A stretch of 32,000 nt of DNA. Source: Caldivirga maquilingensis IC-167 (GTDB lineage Archaea > Thermoproteota > Thermoprotei > Thermoproteales > Thermocladiaceae). This document shows, one piece after another, positions 7,267 to 32,000 of this stretch (positions are counted from its first letter, which is position 1; each line of letters begins with the position of its first letter). Location of the stretch: positions 1,230,001 through 1,262,000 of the forward strand of contig NC_009954.1 in NCBI RefSeq assembly GCF_000018305.1, written 5' to 3'. Made by a program: the position numbers and the translations under genes. The notes beneath the pieces were generated by a model. The model saw nothing but the letters and a program-made list of their open reading frames with translations, searched no databases and had not been told where the DNA came from.

Positions 7267-7384
7267 CGGCCCGTAGCTCAGCGGCAGAGCACCCGGCTGT
7301 AGTCAGCCCCACGGGGGACAATTCACTAAATCCCCGTGGCCGGAAACCGGGGGGTCCCGGGTTCAAATCCCGGCGGGCCGACCA
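7267..7384 (+). tRNA. tRNA-Tyr(GTA): tRNA-Tyr (anticodon GTA) with a 43-nt intron at the canonical 37/38 position and a genomically encoded CCA
   Basis: I folded the cloverleaf by hand. Acceptor stem CGGCCCG/CGGGCCG (C1-G72, the archaeal/eukaryal Tyr identity pair). D stem GCTC/GAGC. Anticodon stem CCCGG/CCGGG with loop CT-GTA-G|intron|A. T arm CCGGG-TTCAAAT-CCCGG. Discriminator A at 7381, then CCA at 7382-7384. Confidence 0.92.
7303..7345 (+). other. tRNA-Tyr intron
   Basis: The intron is inserted between G37 (7302) and A38 (7346). It contains a perfect 8-bp internal helix CCACGGGG/CCCCGTGG. GGCT/AGCC pairing across the anticodon is compatible with a bulge-helix-bulge splice motif. Confidence 0.85.
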
Positions 7385-25086: not shown

Positions 25087-25842
25087 ATGATTATTAGGTT
25101 TTACTCCATTACGGGGAGGACGGAATCCATTGAGAATGAGGTTAGGGCCCTTGTTAATGACATTAAGGCTGAATTAGCTAAGAGGGGTGTGGGTGAGGAT
25201 AAGGTTAGGTTAACTATTATTAAGGTTAGGGGTGATGTTATTGATGATGTTATTAAGTACCTTGATCAACCTGAAGGCAAAATACCAGGCCAATATAAGT
25301 CACTTATAGTTAGGATGAGGCAGGATGGGGTTTCATCATTCCCAGCCATGGTTATTAACGATAGGAAGGTGGCTGAGGGTAGTGAATTAACAATGGATGC
25401 CATTAAGGCTGCATTAGCTAAGGAACTTAAGGAGGAATTCAACCTAGAGATACCTTCAGTAACCTCACCAATACCCCAGGCTCAACCAGTATCAACACCC
25501 CAACCCCAGCCAATCCAACCCCCACCTCCACCCCCACCGGAAATTCCACCACCTCAGGCTATTCAACCCCAACCAGTTAAACCCATAACACCTCCACCGA
25601 CCCCACCGCCTCCAGTGACTCTGCAGACTCCGCCAACTCCGCCTCAACCCACGCAGGTTCAACAGACGGTAACAATACCAGAAACCCCAGTAACCACTGG
25701 GGAGCTTGGGTTTAAGATAGTTAACGGTAGGCCTGATAACTGCAATGACTGCGTCTACTATGGTGCGCATAAGGGTTACTGCTACTTATTCGGCTTTAGG
25801 GTTAATGACCCATCAAAACCACCCTGTAAATCAATAGCCTAA
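25087..25842 (+). CDS. proline-rich two-domain protein: thioredoxin-fold-like N-domain without CxxC, P/Q-rich linker, small C-terminal Cys4 domain
   Basis: The N-domain (MIIRFYSITGRTESIENEV...FPAMVINDRKVAEG) resembles small Thioredoxin_3-type proteins, but RTES replaces the redox CxxC. A ~85-aa P/Q/T linker follows. The C-terminus is CNDCVYYGAHKGYCYLFGFRVNDPSKPPC. A TATA box aaatataaat ends 21 nt before the ATG. Confidence 0.6.
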   Translation: MIIRFYSITGRTESIENEVRALVNDIKAELAKRGVGEDKVRLTIIKVRGDVIDDVIKYLDQPEGKIPGQYKSLIVRMRQDGVSSFPAMVINDRKVAEGSELTMDAIKAALAKELKEEFNLEIPSVTSPIPQAQPVSTPQPQPIQPPPPPPPEIPPPQAIQPQPVKPITPPPTPPPPVTLQTPPTPPQPTQVQQTVTIPETPVTTGELGFKIVNGRPDNCNDCVYYGAHKGYCYLFGFRVNDPSKPPCKSIA

Positions 25843-25914: not shown

Positions 25915-26307
25915 ATGCAGGGGGTAGCATTGTTTGAGGTGCATGGTGATAAACGCATGGTTTACTTCGACTTAAGCGTCATTGGCTTAAGTCAAGTAAA
26001 CGTGGAGGAGAGTCAATTTGAGGTTCTTAATGAGATTGAGAATGAGCTACATGACTTAATAGGTAGATACGGCCCAATGCTAACAAACGATATAGGCCTC
26101 GAGTACAATGATTGGCCAACCAGTAGGGGAATAGTGTTAGCACGCCTATACATGAAGGACAGTGAAGTTAAACTAGTCCTCCTGGCATCATATGAAAGAA
26201 GCCTAATAAGTAGAATAAGCAGTAAGTTGAGTAAACTAGGTTGGAAACCAATATTCATCTTCGACATAAGGAAGATTATGAAAAGCACCAGGTTCCCTCA
26301 ACGTTAA
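25915..26307 (+). CDS. hypothetical protein
   Basis: A 130-aa ORF. A TATA box agtttataaa ends 29 nt upstream. No family recognised. Confidence 0.5.
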   Translation: MQGVALFEVHGDKRMVYFDLSVIGLSQVNVEESQFEVLNEIENELHDLIGRYGPMLTNDIGLEYNDWPTSRGIVLARLYMKDSEVKLVLLASYERSLISRISSKLSKLGWKPIFIFDIRKIMKSTRFPQR

Positions 26308-26392: not shown

Positions 26393-26468
26393 GGGCCCGT
26401 AGCTCAGCATGGATTAGAGCGGCGGCCTTCTAAGCCGTAGGACCCGGGTTCAAATCCCGGCGGGCCCG
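26393..26468 (+). tRNA. tRNA-Arg(TCT): tRNA-Arg (anticodon TCT), intron-less, CCA not encoded
   Basis: Hand fold: acceptor GGGCCCG/CGGGCCC, D stem GCTC/GAGC, anticodon stem GCGGC/GCCGT with loop CT-TCT-AA, variable loop AGGAC, T arm CCGGG-TTCAAAT-CCCGG, discriminator G. Confidence 0.93.
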
Positions 26469-26588
26469 CTAACCTCCACTTGAATTTCAATGAGAAGCAA
26501 TTACTGGGATTAGTTTAGTAATGCATTAAGGTTTATTAAGGAACCAATGGATAATCACTGAAATATCTTAATTTTAAAATAAAATTTC

Positions 26589-28445
26589 TCAAATACCTAG
26601 GTATATAATTAGTATTATTGCTATGGTTAAGCCTAGTAGGATGCCGGGGATGGTGTTGGTCTTAGATTCTCTTAATGCGTTAATGGCTTTAGGTATTAGT
26701 GAGCCGGTTATTATTAGGGTGGTTAGTTCGGTGATGAGGCTTAGTATGGGTGAATGGTTGAAGATCACTGCACTAACTAACGTGAGTAGGATCACGGTAA
26801 TCCAGACGCCGGCAATCCTCCTCTTCACTGCTGATGCGAGGTAGAGTAGGGCGAAGAATAATGATAAACCCAAGTAATAATACATGTGCATTGGGAAGTA
26901 GAAGTAACGAAGAATAGTTAAAACACCAAACACTTGAGCCAAACACCAATAAAACACAGACACAGAACCAAACACAACAGCCAAGAAAACCCTAGCGGAG
27001 AAACGCCTAGGTGTGGGGCGTAATGTTATGGGGTTACTTATTGGGTGAAGTTTCGATAAGTGGCGTAACGTCTTGGAGGTACCCTGTGGGGTCGCCATCT
27101 CTATGGGTTTATTTTTAGCATCGATTATTCCTGGGAATACTATGGTGAGGATCCTTCGGGTGTCTGGGTTCAATCCATGTAGGTTGCCATAAATGGGTTT
27201 TTCAACATCAATTCCAGCCCTAATCAAGGCATCTTTAATCCTTTCACTAATCCTCATGATTAACTCCTCATTAACCTGGCAACCCCCTTCCCTAGCCTCG
27301 TTTAGGTAGGTGTTGATGATGTGGCTAACCCCAGATACAAGGGAACTTTCCGTGAAACCTAGTTTATTCCTTGCATAGAATGCTATGAAATTCCTGAGCT
27401 CAGCATCACCCCTAATGAATCTACACTTATTAGGTAGCATAAATACGTTAGGGAATACATGATGCAGCATCATACATAATCCTGGGGAGGCATCCTCTGG
27501 GCATGATCCAGTGACCCCAAGTCTGTTTACCCCTATGGCGTCGAGTTCATTAATAATGTAATTACTAATGACTTCGCCCACCGCTATGCATCCCATTAAC
27601 TCTGCCTTGTTTAATGCCGATGTTAATACTTCAATGGTCTCCTTAATAATGATACCAGGATCCCTAACACCCCTTAACCTCATTAAATGATCCTTATCAA
27701 CAATTAAACCAGGTGCACAATTACCCGGCGATGGCAATGTACCCACGCTAATGGGGTTTTCCCGTATGTTTTTCACACCTTCATAAATCTCACTCAGCAT
27801 GCTGCAGGGATTTAACTCATTATTGAATAGCTTCTCTAATACATAGTACCCATGTTTAGCCAGGTTATTGAGTGTTGGATCTATGGATTTAACACCTAGC
27901 AAATGCTTCATGGAGTATATTAAATAAATGAGCGAGTGATACAGGTAGTAGAAACATTGGTAGGTGTCTGAGAAGGACCCATCATTACCAATGCAATGGA
28001 GGACTGCAGCATCAATATACTTCTTACTCATCTCATCAATGTTAAATCTTTGCTTAAGAGTCGTCATTATATAGGCATCCTCAATAGCGAAGGTCAGGGC
28101 CCTAGCTACATTGGATTGTGGCCTAAGCCAAAGTTCAGGGCAGTTTCTTTGCCTATAATGGGCGAATTCCCTATGCATCAACTCATGTCTAAAAATCTTA
28201 ATCAATTCCTCAAAGCCCTCACTCCTAACATACTGCTCAAGGGCATTTGGATCAATTATTAACGTATCCTGAATCTCCGAGTAAGCCATAATGTAACTCT
28301 CCACAGAACCTGAAGATGCTACAACACACTTAATACCCAACTTAGTACAGGCATCAAATACACAATCCACCGATGAACCCCAAGTACTTAGCCTCTTTAG
28401 GAAGCATTCCCCAAGTTCATTATACACGGAGTTTTCTTGAGACAT
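26589..28445 (-). CDS. Cys-rich membrane-anchored protein with HExxHxxxxH zinc-metallopeptidase-like motif (function unknown)
   Basis: 618 aa. The N-terminal ~480 aa are soluble and contain ...SSGSVESYIMAY..LIIDPNALEQYV...LIKIFRHELMHREFAHY. This HExxHxxxxH context resembles the putative metallopeptidase domain of DUF2201/SprT-like proteins. I count 15 Cys. The C-terminal ~130 aa carry about 5 hydrophobic helices. The start lies 285 nt from the first CRISPR repeat, and the gene is divergent from the array. Confidence 0.7.
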   Translation of the reverse strand: MSQENSVYNELGECFLKRLSTWGSSVDCVFDACTKLGIKCVVASSGSVESYIMAYSEIQDTLIIDPNALEQYVRSEGFEELIKIFRHELMHREFAHYRQRNCPELWLRPQSNVARALTFAIEDAYIMTTLKQRFNIDEMSKKYIDAAVLHCIGNDGSFSDTYQCFYYLYHSLIYLIYSMKHLLGVKSIDPTLNNLAKHGYYVLEKLFNNELNPCSMLSEIYEGVKNIRENPISVGTLPSPGNCAPGLIVDKDHLMRLRGVRDPGIIIKETIEVLTSALNKAELMGCIAVGEVISNYIINELDAIGVNRLGVTGSCPEDASPGLCMMLHHVFPNVFMLPNKCRFIRGDAELRNFIAFYARNKLGFTESSLVSGVSHIINTYLNEAREGGCQVNEELIMRISERIKDALIRAGIDVEKPIYGNLHGLNPDTRRILTIVFPGIIDAKNKPIEMATPQGTSKTLRHLSKLHPISNPITLRPTPRRFSARVFLAVVFGSVSVFYWCLAQVFGVLTILRYFYFPMHMYYYLGLSLFFALLYLASAVKRRIAGVWITVILLTLVSAVIFNHSPILSLITELTTLIITGSLIPKAINALRESKTNTIPGILLGLTIAIILIIYLGI

Positions 28446-28729
28446 CCCACAACCACCTGGGGAACACGGGGGTTGTGTTGGTTTGTGGTTTTATTCTTGT
28501 TTGTGATTCCTGTCTTCTTTCATTGAGTCAAATATATATTCTATATATTGTCATTGGCACAGTTTCATTGTCATTCTTCATTTCTTTCAATTAGCACAAC
28601 CATTAGGGGGCTTCATTACACCATCAGCACAGGAATGTGAGTGCACAGAATGGTGGAATGGTTGTGCCAATGATAAACAAAACAGGCAGTAGAGAAAAAC
28701 TTAAAAACCCTAAAAAAGCCAATGTATTA
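28446..28729 (+). promoter_or_regulatory. CRISPR leader / divergent intergenic region
   Basis: An AT-rich 284-bp region on the side opposite the degenerate terminal repeat. It contains the palindrome AATATATA-ttc-TATATATT (28531-49), the direct repeats ATTGTCATT (28549-57 and 28568-76), GCACAG(G)AATG repeats (28626-28652), and a BRE/TATA at 28692-28707. Confidence 0.7.
28692..28707 (+). promoter_or_regulatory. CRISPR array promoter (GAGAAAAACTTAAAAA)
   Basis: A BRE-like purine run plus TATA box ends 23 nt before the first repeat (28730). It is identical over 16 nt to the tRNA-Tyr promoter at 7225-7240. Confidence 0.65.
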
Positions 28730-29356
28730 GAAAATCCCAAAAGGGATTAGAAAGTATGGAACACATGTATAGATAGAGACCTAGAAACCTACACGAGTTG
28801 AAAATCCCAAAAGGGATTAGAAAGTATCCGTTTAGTGTTCCCCTTGCTTCCACGTGGAGGATTCGAAAATCCCAAAAGGGATTAGAAAGTTCCCACTTCC
28901 TTAATGTACTCATAATTTTTTAATTATTTTTTGAAAATCCCAAAAGGGATTAGAAAGTTCTAAATAATTTAATGAATCCTGACACAAGTGACTTAATGAT
29001 TCCTGAAAATCCCAAAAGGGATTAGAAAGTCAAAATTGAGCGCACTAAAGATGGCGGTAGGTAATTAAGGAAAATCCCAAAAGGGATTAGAAAGCAATAT
29101 TATCATGGTTTATGCATAAAGTTACAGGTTCTAGAAAATCCCAAAAGGGATTAGAAAGGTAATTATATATATCACTTAACGTTACTTCGTTAAACGCGTA
29201 GGAAAATCCCAAAAGGGATTAGAAAGCTGATGTATCCATATTTCTGCAGAATAGAGTCCGGTATTTGAAAATCCCAAAAGGGATTAGAAAGTTTCCTTGA
29301 TTATTGACTTGACTACTTTCTCTGTTTCCCCGAAAATTCCAAGAGGGGTTAGAAAG
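28730..29356 (+). CRISPR. CRISPR array: 10 x 25-nt repeat GAAAATCCCAAAAGGGATTAGAAAG with 9 spacers (45, 40, 43, 47, 40, 39, 43, 40 and 40 nt)
   Basis: Repeats start at 28730, 28800, 28865, 28933, 29005, 29070, 29134, 29202, 29267 and 29332. The first nine are identical. The last (GAAAATTCCAAGAGGGGTTAGAAAG) has 3 mismatches, which marks the leader-distal end. The repeat ends in GAAAG like other crenarchaeal repeats and has a palindromic core AATCCC-AAAA-GGGATT. The spacers are unique. Confidence 0.97.
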
Positions 29357-29416
29357 GTAAGGAATAGAAGGTGTGAAAATGCTTAAAAATGATCCTTAAA
29401 GGGGATTAATTCTAGG

Positions 29417-32000
29417 GTGTCTGCTATTGATTTTAAACTAGGTTCAAGGTATGATCCATTGAAGGTTGAGGAGGTGGTGTTGAAGTTCTGGGATGAAGCT
29501 AAGATACCTGAGAAGTGGAGGAGTTTTAAGGGGGAGGGGTTATTCACTTTCCTTGAGGGTCCGCCGACAACTAATGGTTTCCCTCATGTTGGTCATGTTA
29601 GGGGTAGGACGTATAAGGATATTGTGTTAAGGTATATGAGGCTTAAAGGTTACTCGCTTTGGGTTCAGGGTGGTTGGGATGAGCAGGGGTTACCTGTTGA
29701 GATTGAGGTTGAGAGGAGGCTTGGGGTTAAGACTAAGAAGGATATTTTCGATAAGATAGGGGCTGAGCGATTCTCGGAGGAGTGTAATTCACTTGTGGAT
29801 TATTACCTTAAGTACTGGGTTGAGGATGGTACGAAGAGGCTTGGGCTTTGGCTTGATGTTGAACACGCCTATGAGACTAGGAGGCCGTACTACATTGAGC
29901 ATGTTTGGGCATTCATAAAGAACATGCATGAAAAGGGTTTACTCACTGAGGATTACAGGGTATTACCATTCTGTCCAAGGTGTGAGACGGCGCTTAGTGA
30001 TGCTGAGGTTGATCAGGGTTATGAGGATAGGGAGGATCCATCAATATTCGTGAAATTCCCAGTGGATGGTAGTGAGGGTGTGTATTTGGTTATTTGGACA
30101 ACAACCCCCTGGACACTGATTGATAATGAGGCCGTTGCCGTTAATCCTGATGCAGATTACGTACTTGTGAGGGTTAAGGGGAGTAATGGTACTGAGTATT
30201 GGTGGCTTGCCGAGAGGCTTATGCAGAGTGTTCTTAATGCAGCTAATGTTAAGGAGTTTGAGATAGTTAAGAGGGTTAAGGGGAGTGAACTTGAGGGGAT
30301 TAGGTACATTCACGTCTTCCTAAATGAAGTGCCCATTCATAAGACCCACTCAAATGCGCACTACGTTATTGCTGAACCCTTCGTAACCCTTGAGGAGGGA
30401 AGCGGCCTAGTCCACATAGCCCCAGCCCACGGTCCAGAGGACTTTGAGGCGGGTAGGCGTAGGAACCTACCTATTACTAATAGTGTTGAGATAAATGGGG
30501 TATTCAATAGTAATGGCGGGGTCTTCAACGGTATGTATTGGCTTGATGTTAATAGGAGGGTTATTGAGGAGCTTAGGCATAGGGGCCTACTGGCTCATCA
30601 AGGTACAGTGATGCACAGGTATCCGCACTGCTGGAGGTGTGGGACGCCTTTAATATATAGGACTGATAGGCAGTGGTTCATAAGGATATCAAGCCTCAGG
30701 GGCAGTTTAGTTAATGAATTATCTAAGGTTAGGATTATTCCACAAAGCTTAAGGAACAGGTTCGATGACTGGGTAGCCAATATTAGGGATTGGGTAATAT
30801 CAAGGAGTAGGATTTGGGGTACGCCACTACCAATATGGAGGTGTAGGGATGATCCAAGTAAGGTAATGGTAATCGGATCAATAGAGGAGTTGAGGAAGCT
30901 TGCCGTTGAACTACCCAATGTACCTGATGAGAAGCTTATCCACAGACCCTGGATAGATATGGTTAAGTTAAGGACCCCCGACTGCAGTGAGTGGGTTAGG
31001 GAACCCTTCGTTGGTGACGTTTGGTTAGATAGTGGTGTAGCCTGGATAGCCGGTGTTGATGGATTGAGGAATAGGGAGCTTTGGAGTAAACTATACCCCT
31101 ACGACTGGGTCACTGAGGCTGTGGATCAAACCAGGGGCTGGTTCTACAGTCTACTAGCCACCTCAGTGGCCTGGATGGGTAAGGCACCCTACAAAACCAT
31201 ATTGATAACTGGGCACGTGGTGGATAAGTATGGGCAGAAGATGAGTAAGTCGAAGGGTAACGTGATTTGGGCAAGGGACCTCATGAGTAGGTATGGGGCT
31301 GACGTCACTAGGCTTTACCTAGCCTCTAAGGCAGCCCCATGGGAGACCCTGCCGGTTAACCCAGATGAGTTTTCAGGTATTAGGAATATTCTAACTGTTC
31401 TATGGAATAGCGTTAGGTTCGCTGACATGTACATGAGGCTTGATAACTATGACCCAAGGGGGCATAGTATTAATGAGGTTTTACCTAAGGCTAAGAGCGA
31501 GGATAAGTGGATGCTCTCAAGGTACTTCAGTAGGTTAAGTAGGATAACCCAGTACCTTGATGAATTCAGGATTCATGAGGCTGCAAGGGAGTGGATAAGC
31601 CTGATTGTTGATGATGTGAGCCACGGTTACATTAGGCTAATTAGGCGTAGGGTATGGGTTGAGGGGAGTGATGACGATAAGCTAGTAGTCTACACCGTGC
31701 TTTACAACGTGCTTAAGGGTGCAATAGTGATTGGGTCGGTTTTCACACCATTCATAACCGAGTACTTGTACAAGGCCTTCGTTAGGGATGCAGCCGATAG
31801 CGTTCACTTAGCCCCAATGCCGGAGATTAGGCGTGACTTAATTAATGAGAGGCTTGAGAAGGCCTACGACGCAATCTTCGAAGCCTTCTCACTAACAGCC
31901 GCTATTAGGAATAATTTAGGCATTAAGCTTAGGTGGCCGTTGAGTGACATGCAGGTTAAGGTTAAGAATAGTGAAATCACTGAAACAGTGCGTGAATTAC
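29417..32000 (+). CDS. ileS: isoleucyl-tRNA synthetase (N-terminal ~861 codons; 3' end beyond window, hence absent from the ORF track)
   Basis: I translated it by hand from GTG 29417: VSAIDFKLGSRYDPLKVEEVVLKFWDEAKIPEKW...EGPPTTNGFPHVGH (HIGH motif, in frame at 29585), GWDEQGLPVE, HCWRCGTPLIYRTDRQWF, and KMSKSKGN (in frame at 31238-31261, the KMSKS motif). There is no in-frame stop to base 32000. A TATA box cttaaaaat (29382-90) ends 27 nt upstream of the start. Confidence 0.93.
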   Translation, partial: MSAIDFKLGSRYDPLKVEEVVLKFWDEAKIPEKWRSFKGEGLFTFLEGPPTTNGFPHVGHVRGRTYKDIVLRYMRLKGYSLWVQGGWDEQGLPVEIEVERRLGVKTKKDIFDKIGAERFSEECNSLVDYYLKYWVEDGTKRLGLWLDVEHAYETRRPYYIEHVWAFIKNMHEKGLLTEDYRVLPFCPRCETALSDAEVDQGYEDREDPSIFVKFPVDGSEGVYLVIWTTTPWTLIDNEAVAVNPDADYVLVRVKGSNGTEYWWLAERLMQSVLNAANVKEFEIVKRVKGSELEGIRYIHVFLNEVPIHKTHSNAHYVIAEPFVTLEEGSGLVHIAPAHGPEDFEAGRRRNLPITNSVEINGVFNSNGGVFNGMYWLDVNRRVIEELRHRGLLAHQGTVMHRYPHCWRCGTPLIYRTDRQWFIRISSLRGSLVNELSKVRIIPQSLRNRFDDWVANIRDWVISRSRIWGTPLPIWRCRDDPSKVMVIGSIEELRKLAVELPNVPDEKLIHRPWIDMVKLRTPDCSEWVREPFVGDVWLDSGVAWIAGVDGLRNRELWSKLYPYDWVTEAVDQTRGWFYSLLATSVAWMGKAPYKTILITGHVVDKYGQKMSKSKGNVIWARDLMSRYGADVTRLYLASKAAPWETLPVNPDEFSGIRNILTVLWNSVRFADMYMRLDNYDPRGHSINEVLPKAKSEDKWMLSRYFSRLSRITQYLDEFRIHEAAREWISLIVDDVSHGYIRLIRRRVWVEGSDDDKLVVYTVLYNVLKGAIVIGSVFTPFITEYLYKAFVRDAADSVHLAPMPEIRRDLINERLEKAYDAIFEAFSLTAAIRNNLGIKLRWPLSDMQVKVKNSEITETVREL

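What the first reader, a model, noticed from the sequence alone, without database searches (positions are those of the whole stretch)
26589..28445. Uncharacterised Cys-rich HExxHxxxxH membrane protein sharing a divergent control region with the CRISPR leader
The 618-aa ORF has an unusual architecture. A large soluble N-terminal region carries a single zinc-metallopeptidase-type signature (FRHELMHREFAH). The preceding context (SSGS...IIDPNAL...) resembles the 'putative metallopeptidase' domain normally fused to VWA domains in MoxR-partner proteins. Here it is instead followed by about 350 aa of unrecognisable sequence with many cysteines (15 in total by my count) and a C-terminal bundle of about 5 TM helices. 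Its start codon is only 285 nt from the first CRISPR repeat, so it shares the leader as a bidirectional intergenic region. It is the only non-housekeeping gene next to an otherwise cas-less array. It also sits in an AT-richer stretch bounded by tRNA-Arg and ileS. I see two possible readings: a CRISPR-linked accessory or membrane effector protease, or cargo of an old integration event. I recognise no similarity to any Cas family.
Basis: partly seen in the sequence, partly recalled or inferred. Interest (0 to 1): 0.78.

Follow-up and report, generated by a model that had tools for sequence, protein, structure and literature searches.

The report
Orphan-headed archaeal membrane protein beside CRISPR
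The gene is real: it encodes a Caldivirga maquilingensis membrane-anchored protein whose rear half belongs to an undescribed Thermoproteales domain family, but nothing supports a working link to the neighbouring CRISPR array, and its protease-like HExxH motif is unverified.

Summary
It is the C. maquilingensis IC-167 hypothetical protein WP_012186242.1/A8ME17.

What changes is the anatomy and the CRISPR reading.
- **Recognisable rear half.** Residues ~243-618 are one degenerate and one intact copy of a ~100-aa helical "two-Cys" module, then a basic linker and a TM anchor. Pyrobaculum, Thermoproteus and Vulcanisaeta proteins share this module. It has no Pfam, NCBIfam or PDB match. AlphaFold2 (AF2) models it at pLDDT 94.
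- **Orphan head.** Residues 1-240 match nothing among 1.84 billion representative proteins.
- **HExxH not conserved.** None of 16 relatives has the motif, and no zincin (zinc-metallopeptidase) profile matches.
- **No CRISPR link.** None of eight independent homologue loci carries CRISPR or cas.
- **Variable region.** The two closest Caldivirga genomes lack both gene and array upstream of ileS; synteny starts just after the last repeat.

Best reading: a species-specific member of a lineage-specific membrane-tethered family, sitting by chance beside an orphan array. Interest is low to moderate.

The parts
26589..28445 (-). Whole CDS: 618 aa plus stop. It is C. maquilingensis IC-167 hypothetical protein ABW02023.1 / WP_012186242.1 / UniProt A8ME17.
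   Evidence: in-frame coding score is positive in all five segments and negative (at most 0.03 in the TM segment) in the other frames
27726..28445 (-). Orphan N-terminal head, aa 1-240. It is predicted helical and cytoplasmic and has 8 Cys.
   Evidence: No homologue at E<=0.001 among 1.84 billion representatives. No Pfam, PHROG or PDB sequence hit. AF2 pLDDT is below 50 for aa 36-134. No module copy is present.
28158..28187 (-). HELMHREFAH, aa 87-96: HExxH plus a His four residues further on. A possible Glu ligand lies in AIEDAY at aa 119-124.
   Evidence: chance expectation 0.024 for HExxH and 0.0006 for the extended motif; absent from all 16 family representatives
27441..27719 (-). Degenerate copy of the two-Cys module, aa ~243-335. 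It keeps the Cys pair C243/C286 and the terminal HHVFPNVF motif.
   Evidence: hmmsearch iE 0.002; hhalign probability 85%, E 5.8e-6 over 71 columns; alignment
27111..27425 (-). Intact two-Cys module, aa 341-445: three long helices, a beta-hairpin and a short helix. C341 is nearly invariant in the family and C389 is invariant.
   Evidence: phmmer hits E 1e-21 to 1e-3, all centred on aa 337-460; family HMM iE 1.6e-28; alignment A1; AF2 pLDDT 94 and pTM 0.85; no Foldseek match with E<=0.001 in PDB or BFVD, the viral structure library
26991..27110 (-). Basic, Pro-rich linker, aa 446-485 (...RPTPRRFSAR). It is predicted disordered and cytoplasmic.
   Evidence: pLDDT below 50; relatives have the same kind of linker
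26592..26990 (-). Membrane anchor, aa 486-618: five TM helices with very short loops. The topology is N-in/C-out by the positive-inside rule (KRR after TM2, K/R-rich loop after TM4).
   Evidence: phmmer alignments to P0015 and P0017 extend into it, to aa 556-559; the shared AVK(R/P)xW..G.W pattern appears
28446..28729 (.). Divergent intergenic region and CRISPR leader, 284 nt, 38% GC. A BRE/TATA-like GAAAAACTTAAAAA lies at 28694-28707, 30 nt before repeat 1. An AT-rich TATATA block lies at 28528-28548, about 90-100 nt upstream of the ORF's ATG.
   Evidence: pattern inspection only; no transcription data
28590..28671 (-). Long inverted repeat with 15-nt arms, ATTAGCACAACCATT / AATGGTTGTGCCAAT. 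A second CACAACC/GGTTGTG pair at 28448-28477 abuts the ORF start.
   Evidence: I3; the minus-strand RNA fold has z -4.8 against -1.9 on the plus strand; 4 of the window's 7 CACAACC copies lie in these 284 nt
28730..29356 (+). CRISPR array: 10 repeats of 25 nt, 9 spacers of 39-47 nt, terminal repeat degenerate.
   Evidence: no cas family in any scanned ORF of the window; three spacer cores have no exact match in viral contigs
26393..26469 (+). tRNA-Arg(TCT), 119 nt beyond the ORF's stop codon. Its 3' half is 90% identical to a stretch inside a fusellovirus integrase gene.
   Evidence: (H19/H20)

Best explanation
ORF618 is a species-specific, membrane-tethered cytoplasmic protein.

**Shown**
- Its rear 375 residues follow the plan of an undescribed Thermoproteales family: one or more ~100-aa helical modules with a conserved Cys pair, then a basic Pro-rich linker, then a TM anchor. 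Here there is one decayed and one intact module.
- In relatives, the same module is joined to a Ser/Thr kinase plus ankyrin repeats, to a CAP domain, or to a transglutaminase-like domain. A weak copy of the module also sits in a protein with CDC48_N domains.
- In two lineages, two module genes flank a ~450-aa coiled-coil protein with a hydrophobic N-terminal segment.

**Inferred**
- The N-in topology places the head and both modules at the inner face of the membrane.
- The module is a docking or oligomerisation unit, possibly stabilised by a disulfide or a metal through its Cys pair. It holds a variable 'head' at the membrane.
- In this protein the head is a 240-aa orphan domain. Its HExxHxxxxH may make it a zincin-type metallopeptidase that cuts a membrane-proximal cytoplasmic substrate. 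I put that at about 30%. Otherwise the motif is fortuitous and the head is a non-catalytic helical domain.
- The position next to the CRISPR array reflects a rearranged, variable segment between tRNA-Arg and ileS. It does not reflect a functional link.
For: - **Family membership.** An exhaustive phmmer search gave 16 relatives, all matching aa ~337-460, two of them on into the anchor. The family HMM scores iE 1.6e-28. A second, decayed copy has hhalign probability 85%. The Cys pair is conserved.
- **Module is a real fold.** AF2 gives the module pLDDT 94.
- **Relatives and taxa.** They come from Vulcanisaeta, Thermoproteus and Pyrobaculum, with Pkinase+Ank, CAP, DUF553 and CDC48_N partners.
- **Coiled-coil neighbour.** It is conserved at 48% identity between L009 and L013.
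- **No CRISPR or cas at homologue loci**.
- **Variable region.** The gene and array are missing upstream of ileS in the two closest Caldivirga genomes, and synteny starts 20 nt after the array.
- **Species-specific.** The cluster look-up names only C. maquilingensis, and there is no close relative in 5.8 billion clusters.
- **Real coding sequence.** Coding potential is positive along the whole ORF.
- **Topology.** It follows from the sequence.
Against: - The head cannot be modelled (pLDDT below 50) and has no homologues, so its function is a guess.
- The coiled-coil partner is not in this window.
- Only about four homologue loci have 9 kb or more of sequence, so a weak CRISPR enrichment cannot be excluded.
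- The CACAACC palindromes spread across the shared spacer could mean common regulation of both promoters.
Confidence: 0.55

Rival explanations
1. CRISPR-linked accessory or effector protein. This is a membrane-anchored metalloprotease expressed divergently from the leader. It would act in CRISPR immunity as an abortive-infection effector or as an adaptation or regulation factor.
For: - It lies directly beside the leader and is the only non-housekeeping gene at the array.
- The spacer carries two palindromes sharing one 7-mer, 4 copies against about 0.04 expected.
- Membrane-associated and protease ancillary effectors are known for type III systems (10.1101/270033; PMC10808066).
Against: - No CARF, SAVED or other sensor domain, and no Cas, NCBIfam or PADLOC hit.
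- No cas family in any scanned ORF of the window.
- Only 1 of 9 family loci is CRISPR-linked, and that one is this locus. This is far below the recurrent linkage required by the CRISPRicity criterion (10.1101/270033).
- The HExxH head is unique to one genome.
- The closest Caldivirga genomes lack both gene and array at this site.
Confidence: 0.06
2. Decayed cargo of a mobile element that once integrated at tRNA-Arg. ORF618, and perhaps the mini-array, arrived by horizontal transfer, and the integration machinery has since been lost.
For: - The tRNA-Arg 3' half is 90% identical to an attP-like stretch inside a fusellovirus integrase gene.
- ORF618 and the adjacent 130-aa ORF have the lowest CAI in the window, 0.59 and 0.57 against 0.64-0.77.
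- GC is lower here.
- The segment is absent from related genomes at this site.
Against: - No second att copy in the window.
- No integrase fragment or any other ORF of 60 aa or more with a family hit between the tRNA and ileS.
- No homologue in phage, plasmid or IMG/VR collections.
- The rear half belongs to a family found in chromosomal contexts of other Thermoproteales.
Confidence: 0.2
3. The HExxH is a chance motif. The head is a fast-evolving, non-enzymatic helical domain, and the protein is purely an adaptor or scaffold.
For: - About 2% of proteins of this composition carry HExxH by chance.
- No zincin profile matches.
- AF2 predicts only helices, with none of the beta-sheet expected in a zincin fold, though at low confidence.
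- No relative keeps the motif.
Against: - The extra His at +9 and a downstream Glu (AIEDAY) fit zincin ligand spacing.
- The motif sits in a predicted long helix (aa 78-99). The segments before it (KCVVAS, SYIMAYS, TLIIDP) look like strands by eye.
- A neighbouring Pyrobaculum gene (L024 12117-14816) encodes a protein with a weak module match that also has a lone HELIH.
Confidence: 0.4

Closest known systems
Undescribed Thermoproteales 'two-Cys module' membrane proteins, e.g. Vulcanisaeta sp. JCM 14467 WP_054849042.1 (Pkinase+module+Ank+TM), Pyrobaculum ferrireducens WP_014290028.1 (2 modules+TM+CAP), and a Thermoproteus sp. MAG protein MEL9991890.1 (P0017)
   Same: It shares the ~100-aa helical module with the conserved Cys pair, often in tandem, followed by a basic Pro-rich linker and a TM anchor. 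The anchor pattern K(R/P)xW..G.W is shared with P0008, P0015 and P0017.
   Different: It has a unique 240-aa HExxH head. One of its modules is decayed. It has no ectodomain. No coiled-coil or second family gene lies nearby. It is the only member next to a CRISPR array.
That family's motif is recalled from memory, not tested here.
   Same: It has HExxH in a predicted helix, a further His four residues on, and a Glu about 30 residues downstream.
   Different: No profile match to any zincin family at E<=10. There is no VWA or MoxR partner. The motif cannot be shown to be conserved, and there is no confident fold.
Type III CRISPR membrane or protease ancillary effectors: Cam1 (PMC10808066); CARF-TM-Lon proteins and CorA (10.1101/270033)
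   Same: It is a membrane protein with a bulky cytosolic part, encoded beside CRISPR elements.
   Different: Those proteins carry a CARF/SAVED sensor and recur in cas10 loci. Here there is no sensor domain, no cas genes and no recurrence. The Foldseek hit to Cam1 (8t64_A, E=4) is noise.
DUF973 (PF06157), archaeal membrane proteins
   Same: The multi-TM anchor of relative P0003 matches DUF973 below threshold (E 3.5e-5, 23.6 bits against a cutoff of 26.4).
   Different: The query's own anchor gives no Pfam hit.

Membership tests
Zincin-type metallopeptidase (any family; DUF2201_N in particular) | HExxH motif within an alpha-helix | tested here: met
   HELMH lies at aa 87-91 inside predicted helix 78-99. 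The helix prediction has low confidence.
Zincin-type metallopeptidase (any family; DUF2201_N in particular) | Significant profile or sequence match to a curated zincin family | tested here: not met
   Pfam at E<=10 for the whole protein, aa 1-242 and aa 44-134 gave none. NCBIfam gave none. PDB sequences gave none.
Zincin-type metallopeptidase (any family; DUF2201_N in particular) | Motif and third ligand conserved among homologues | tested here: inconclusive
   The head has no homologues to compare. The 16 relatives of the rear half have no HExxH.
Zincin-type metallopeptidase (any family; DUF2201_N in particular) | Zincin fold: mixed beta-sheet packed on the active-site helix | tested here: inconclusive
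   AF2 pLDDT is below 50 over aa 36-134, with no strands predicted. Foldseek on the full model gave nothing below E 0.27.
Zincin-type metallopeptidase (any family; DUF2201_N in particular) | Zinc binding and peptidase activity | not testable with these tools
   This needs biochemistry.
CRISPR-associated (Cas or ancillary) protein | Homology to a known Cas or ancillary family, or a CARF/SAVED sensor | tested here: not met
   No Pfam, NCBIfam or PADLOC hit.
CRISPR-associated (Cas or ancillary) protein | Recurrent genomic linkage to CRISPR/cas across genomes (CRISPRicity, 10.1101/270033) | tested here: not met
   0 of 8 independent homologue loci have an array or a cas Pfam family. The sample is small: only L011, L013 and L024 have 10 kb on each side.
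CRISPR-associated (Cas or ancillary) protein | Located in or next to a cas operon | tested here: not met
   No ORF of the 32-kb window that was scanned has a cas family hit.
Thermoproteales two-Cys module family (undescribed) | Significant match to the module | tested here: met
   phmmer E down to 1.2e-21. The family HMM scores iE 1.6e-28 at aa 345-440. A second copy has hhalign E 5.8e-6.
Thermoproteales two-Cys module family (undescribed) | Conserved Cys pair, one before helix 1 and one in the GC after helix 2 | tested here: met
   C341/C389, and C243/C286 in the decayed copy. C53 of alignment A1 is invariant and C5 is conserved in at least 90% of sequences.
Thermoproteales two-Cys module family (undescribed) | Module followed by a basic Pro-rich linker and TM helix or helices | tested here: met
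   aa 446-485 form the linker and aa 486-617 form five TM helices.
Thermoproteales two-Cys module family (undescribed) | Neighbouring coiled-coil protein and second family gene (seen in two lineages only) | tested here: not met
   tblastn of the coiled-coil protein against the window found nothing, and the window has only one module gene.
Integrated element at a tRNA gene | Duplicated att (partial tRNA copy) and an integrase gene or fragments | tested here: not met
   The only other hit to the tRNA 3' end is a different tRNA at 7353. No integrase family was found.

The most novel reading that the evidence does not exclude
The two-Cys module marks a Thermoproteales-specific, membrane-associated signalling or conflict system. 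In it, a common docking module, working with a coiled-coil partner, carries swappable heads: kinase, zincin-like, CDC48_N, CAP or transglutaminase-like. On this reading the C. maquilingensis member is a defence-island effector, co-regulated with the adjacent CRISPR array through the shared CACAACC palindromes in the 284-nt spacer.
Probability: 0.07. Interest if true: 0.7.

Novelty: new variant of a known kind. Interest (0 to 1): 0.28.

Why it matters
The result removes a tempting false lead. One adjacency plus an HExxH motif does not make a CRISPR effector.

What remains has modest value:
- A small, confidently modelled domain family restricted to Thermoproteales. It has no entry in Pfam or NCBIfam and no structural neighbour found.
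- The family combines promiscuously with kinase, ankyrin, CDC48_N, CAP and transglutaminase-like domains, and has a conserved coiled-coil neighbour.
- The family could be registered as a new domain and studied as a membrane-docking unit in these archaea.

The orphan head is an example of a species-restricted domain grafted onto a conserved chassis.

Tried and rejected
- **Word-indexed protein search** with the whole protein found only itself. With module alignment A1 it found nothing. With the head at E<=10 it found nothing. The negative result rests on the exhaustive search.
The single protein found no relative in GTDB genomes or in viral contigs.
- **CRISPR repeat searches.** The exact repeat is absent from metagenome contigs. 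A relaxed pattern gave three single, non-array hits. The repeat is absent from viral contigs. Three spacer cores have no exact viral match.
- **tblastn** against phages and plasmids gave nothing.
- **Spurious cluster member.** P0019, from a TARA ocean sample, proved unrelated.
- **Weak Rfam hit.** A SNORD74 match in the leader (E 0.73) was rejected as chance.
- **PADLOC hits** on relatives were generic kinase, ankyrin and coiled-coil matches.
- **Literature.** No paper mentions the protein accessions.
- **A failed script.** A shuffle simulation timed out and was replaced by the analytic expectation.
Full report
**Observation**

The ORF at 26589-28445 on the minus strand encodes 618 aa. It has 15 Cys and one HExxH, HELMHREFAH, at aa 87-96. 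Five hydrophobic helices lie between aa 486 and 617.

On the plus strand, ten 25-nt repeats (GAAAATCCCAAAAGGGATTAGAAAG) run from 28730 to 29356. The last repeat is degenerate and sits next to ileS, which starts at 29417. The leader is therefore the 284-nt spacer 28446-28729 that also precedes the ORF. tRNA-Arg(TCT) lies at 26393-26469.

GC drops to 0.36-0.42 across this stretch. No ORF of the window that I scanned hits a cas family. A codon-usage log-odds score is positive in the annotated frame for all five segments of the ORF. It is negative (at most 0.03 in the TM segment) in every other frame, so the whole ORF, including the N-terminus, is real coding sequence.

**Identity**

An exact look-up identifies the protein as ABW02023.1 / WP_012186242.1 / UniProt A8ME17, a 'hypothetical protein' of Caldivirga maquilingensis IC-167. 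No paper in the library mentions these accessions.

**Anatomy**

Pfam, NCBIfam, PADLOC and PDB sequence searches on the whole protein give nothing.

An exhaustive phmmer search of 1.84 billion representative proteins returns 16 relatives. Every best match falls in aa ~337-460, and two extend into the TM region to aa 556-559. The shared piece is a ~100-aa module that is often tandemly repeated, 1-4 copies per protein.

The alignment shows one invariant and one nearly invariant Cys. A family HMM scores the query's aa 345-440 at iE 1.6e-28. It also detects a decayed second copy upstream (iE 0.002), which hhalign confirms (probability 85%, E 5.8e-6, 71 columns). No copy lies in aa 1-236.

The resulting layout is:
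- aa 1-240: orphan head
- aa 243-335: decayed module
- aa 341-445: intact module
- aa 446-485: basic Pro-rich linker
- aa 486-617: five TM helices

The K/R-rich linker, the KRR after TM2 and the K/R loop after TM4 give an N-in/C-out topology by the positive-inside rule. This topology is an inference from the sequence. Four of the 15 Cys are the two module pairs.

**Structure**

With the module alignment, AF2 gives pLDDT 96-98 for aa 341-445 in the full-length model. The head is unreliable: pLDDT is below 50 over aa 36-134, which includes the HExxH.

**The family**

Members come from Vulcanisaeta sp. JCM 14467, a Thermoproteus MAG, Pyrobaculum ferrireducens and hot-spring metagenomes. The module is followed by a linker and one or more TM helices. 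Its domain partners are:
- an N-terminal protein kinase with ankyrin repeats (P0008/P0021), encoded two genes downstream of a PP2C phosphatase
- a CAP domain (P0004, P0015)
- a transglutaminase-like DUF553 domain (P0002)

In two lineages, two module genes flank a ~450-aa coiled-coil protein that is 48% identical between them. In P. ferrireducens, the gene next to the CAP member encodes an 899-aa soluble protein. It has a weak N-terminal module match, a lone HELIH and two CDC48_N/CDC48_2 pairs.

**The HExxH head**

Nothing in 1.84 billion representatives matches aa 1-336. PHROGs and PDB sequences give only noise.

Given the protein's composition, HExxH is expected 0.024 times by chance. The exact HExxHxxxxH is expected 0.0006 times, but that spacing was chosen after the fact. 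None of the 16 relatives has HExxH.

Some features are compatible with a zincin: a predicted helix around the motif, a Glu about 30 residues downstream, and strand-like segments before it. All of these rest on reading the sequence by eye. I put about 30% on a real metallopeptidase.

**CRISPR link**

I examined eight independent homologue loci: L009, L011, L012, L013, L016, L017, L018 and L019/L024, 94.6 kb of locus sequence in total. A k-mer array finder found no CRISPR array in any of them, though it recovers the window's own array. The precomputed Pfam lists show no cas family.

So the family's CRISPR-linked fraction is 1 of 9, and the one case is the query itself. Recognised ancillary genes are defined by recurrent linkage, and typically carry CARF-type sensors in type III loci (10.1101/270033; PMC10808066). 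The sample is small, because only three loci have 10 kb on both sides.

In the 284-nt spacer, a BRE/TATA-like element sits 30 nt before repeat 1. The nearest AT-rich box for the ORF is about 90-100 nt from its ATG. The two putative promoters are therefore well separated (pattern inspection only).

One feature remains unexplained. The 7-mer CACAACC occurs four times in the spacer as two inverted pairs, against about 0.04 expected. The larger pair forms a hairpin that is much more stable on the minus strand, with z -4.8.

**Genomic setting**

The closest genomes available are Caldivirga sp. UBA161 (IleS 92% amino-acid identity) and MU80 (85%). In both, an unrelated 874- or 795-aa protein with a hydrophobic N-terminal segment lies upstream of ileS. 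Neither has a CRISPR array, a tRNA-Arg or ORF618 there. Nucleotide similarity to the window begins at 29376, 20 nt after the last repeat.

ORF618 has nearly the lowest codon adaptation in the window: 0.59, against 0.57 for the adjacent 130-aa ORF and 0.64-0.77 for the rest. The tRNA-Arg 3' half is 90% identical to a stretch inside a fusellovirus integrase gene, which is the pattern expected of an attP site.

Against an integrated element, there is no att duplicate, no integrase, and no viral or plasmid homologue. This is a variable, rearranged region. A past integration is possible but unproven.

**Verdict**

The gene is real and is an odd chimera: a conserved Thermoproteales membrane-docking chassis carrying a species-specific head. 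The protease reading is untested.

The most useful by-product is the undescribed two-Cys module family and its conserved coiled-coil neighbourhood.

Noticed in passing
window 26420-26469: The 3' half of tRNA-Arg(TCT) is 90% identical over 50 nt to a stretch inside the integrase gene of Betafusellovirus yellowstonense (FJ870917 / NC_013585). This is the pattern expected of a fusellovirus attP/attB pair. No second att copy is present in the window.
   Followed up: partly
window 28446-28480 and 28590-28671: The CRISPR leader / ORF618 upstream spacer holds 4 of the window's 7 CACAACC copies as two inverted pairs. The larger pair has 15-nt arms 52 nt apart and folds with z -4.8 as minus-strand RNA, against -1.9 on the plus strand. 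It could be an operator, a small RNA or a leader feature; the cause is unexplained.
   Followed up: partly
window 29376 vs L002 7103 and L003 9997: Synteny with Caldivirga sp. UBA161 and MU80 begins 20 nt after the last CRISPR repeat. Upstream of ileS those genomes carry an unrelated 874- or 795-aa protein with a hydrophobic N-terminal segment instead of the array, ORF618 and tRNA-Arg.
   Followed up: yes
L009 911-6605; L013 10001-15296 (also L010, L014, L015): There is a conserved trio: a module protein, a ~450-aa coiled-coil protein with a hydrophobic N-terminal segment (48% identical between lineages), and a second module protein with 2-4 module copies and a large C-terminal region beyond the TM helix (a DUF553 transglutaminase-like domain in P0002).
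   Followed up: partly
L024 12117-14816 (Pyrobaculum ferrireducens CP003098): An 899-aa soluble protein lies next to the CAP-domain family member. It has a weak N-terminal module match, a lone HELIH (faint PhageMetallopep hit, E 0.15) and two CDC48_N/CDC48_2 pairs.
   Followed up: partly
L011 8697-11545 (Vulcanisaeta sp. JCM 14467): A family member fuses a Ser/Thr kinase domain, the module, ankyrin repeats and TM helices. A PP2C-type phosphatase gene lies two genes upstream, in a region full of small ORFs with no family hits.
   Followed up: no
P0003, P0015, P0017 and L013 13083-15296 (N-termini): Several relatives start with Cys-rich helical segments carrying paired CxxxC motifs, for example CVESC...CLEWC and CYDNC...CYSIC. 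These resemble twin-CX3C hairpins. Together with the module's Cys pair, this suggests cytoplasmic disulfides or metal sites.
   Followed up: no
window 7267-7381: Rfam finds a 115-nt tRNA (56.7 bits) that ARAGORN missed. It is probably an intron-containing tRNA.
   Followed up: no
window 25087-25842 and 25915-26307: Two ORFs without family hits lie just upstream of tRNA-Arg, between the FAD-binding oxidoreductase gene and the tRNA. One is a 251-aa protein with a long Pro-rich centre and a C-terminal CxxC...C...C cluster. The other is a 130-aa ORF with the lowest codon adaptation in the window (0.57).
   Followed up: no
window 28730-29291: Rfam (CRISPR-DR17) calls the repeats on the minus strand. 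The degenerate terminal repeat at 29332 and the ...GAAAG 3' end typical of crenarchaeal repeats (from my own knowledge) instead indicate plus-strand transcription from the 28446-28729 leader.
   Followed up: partly
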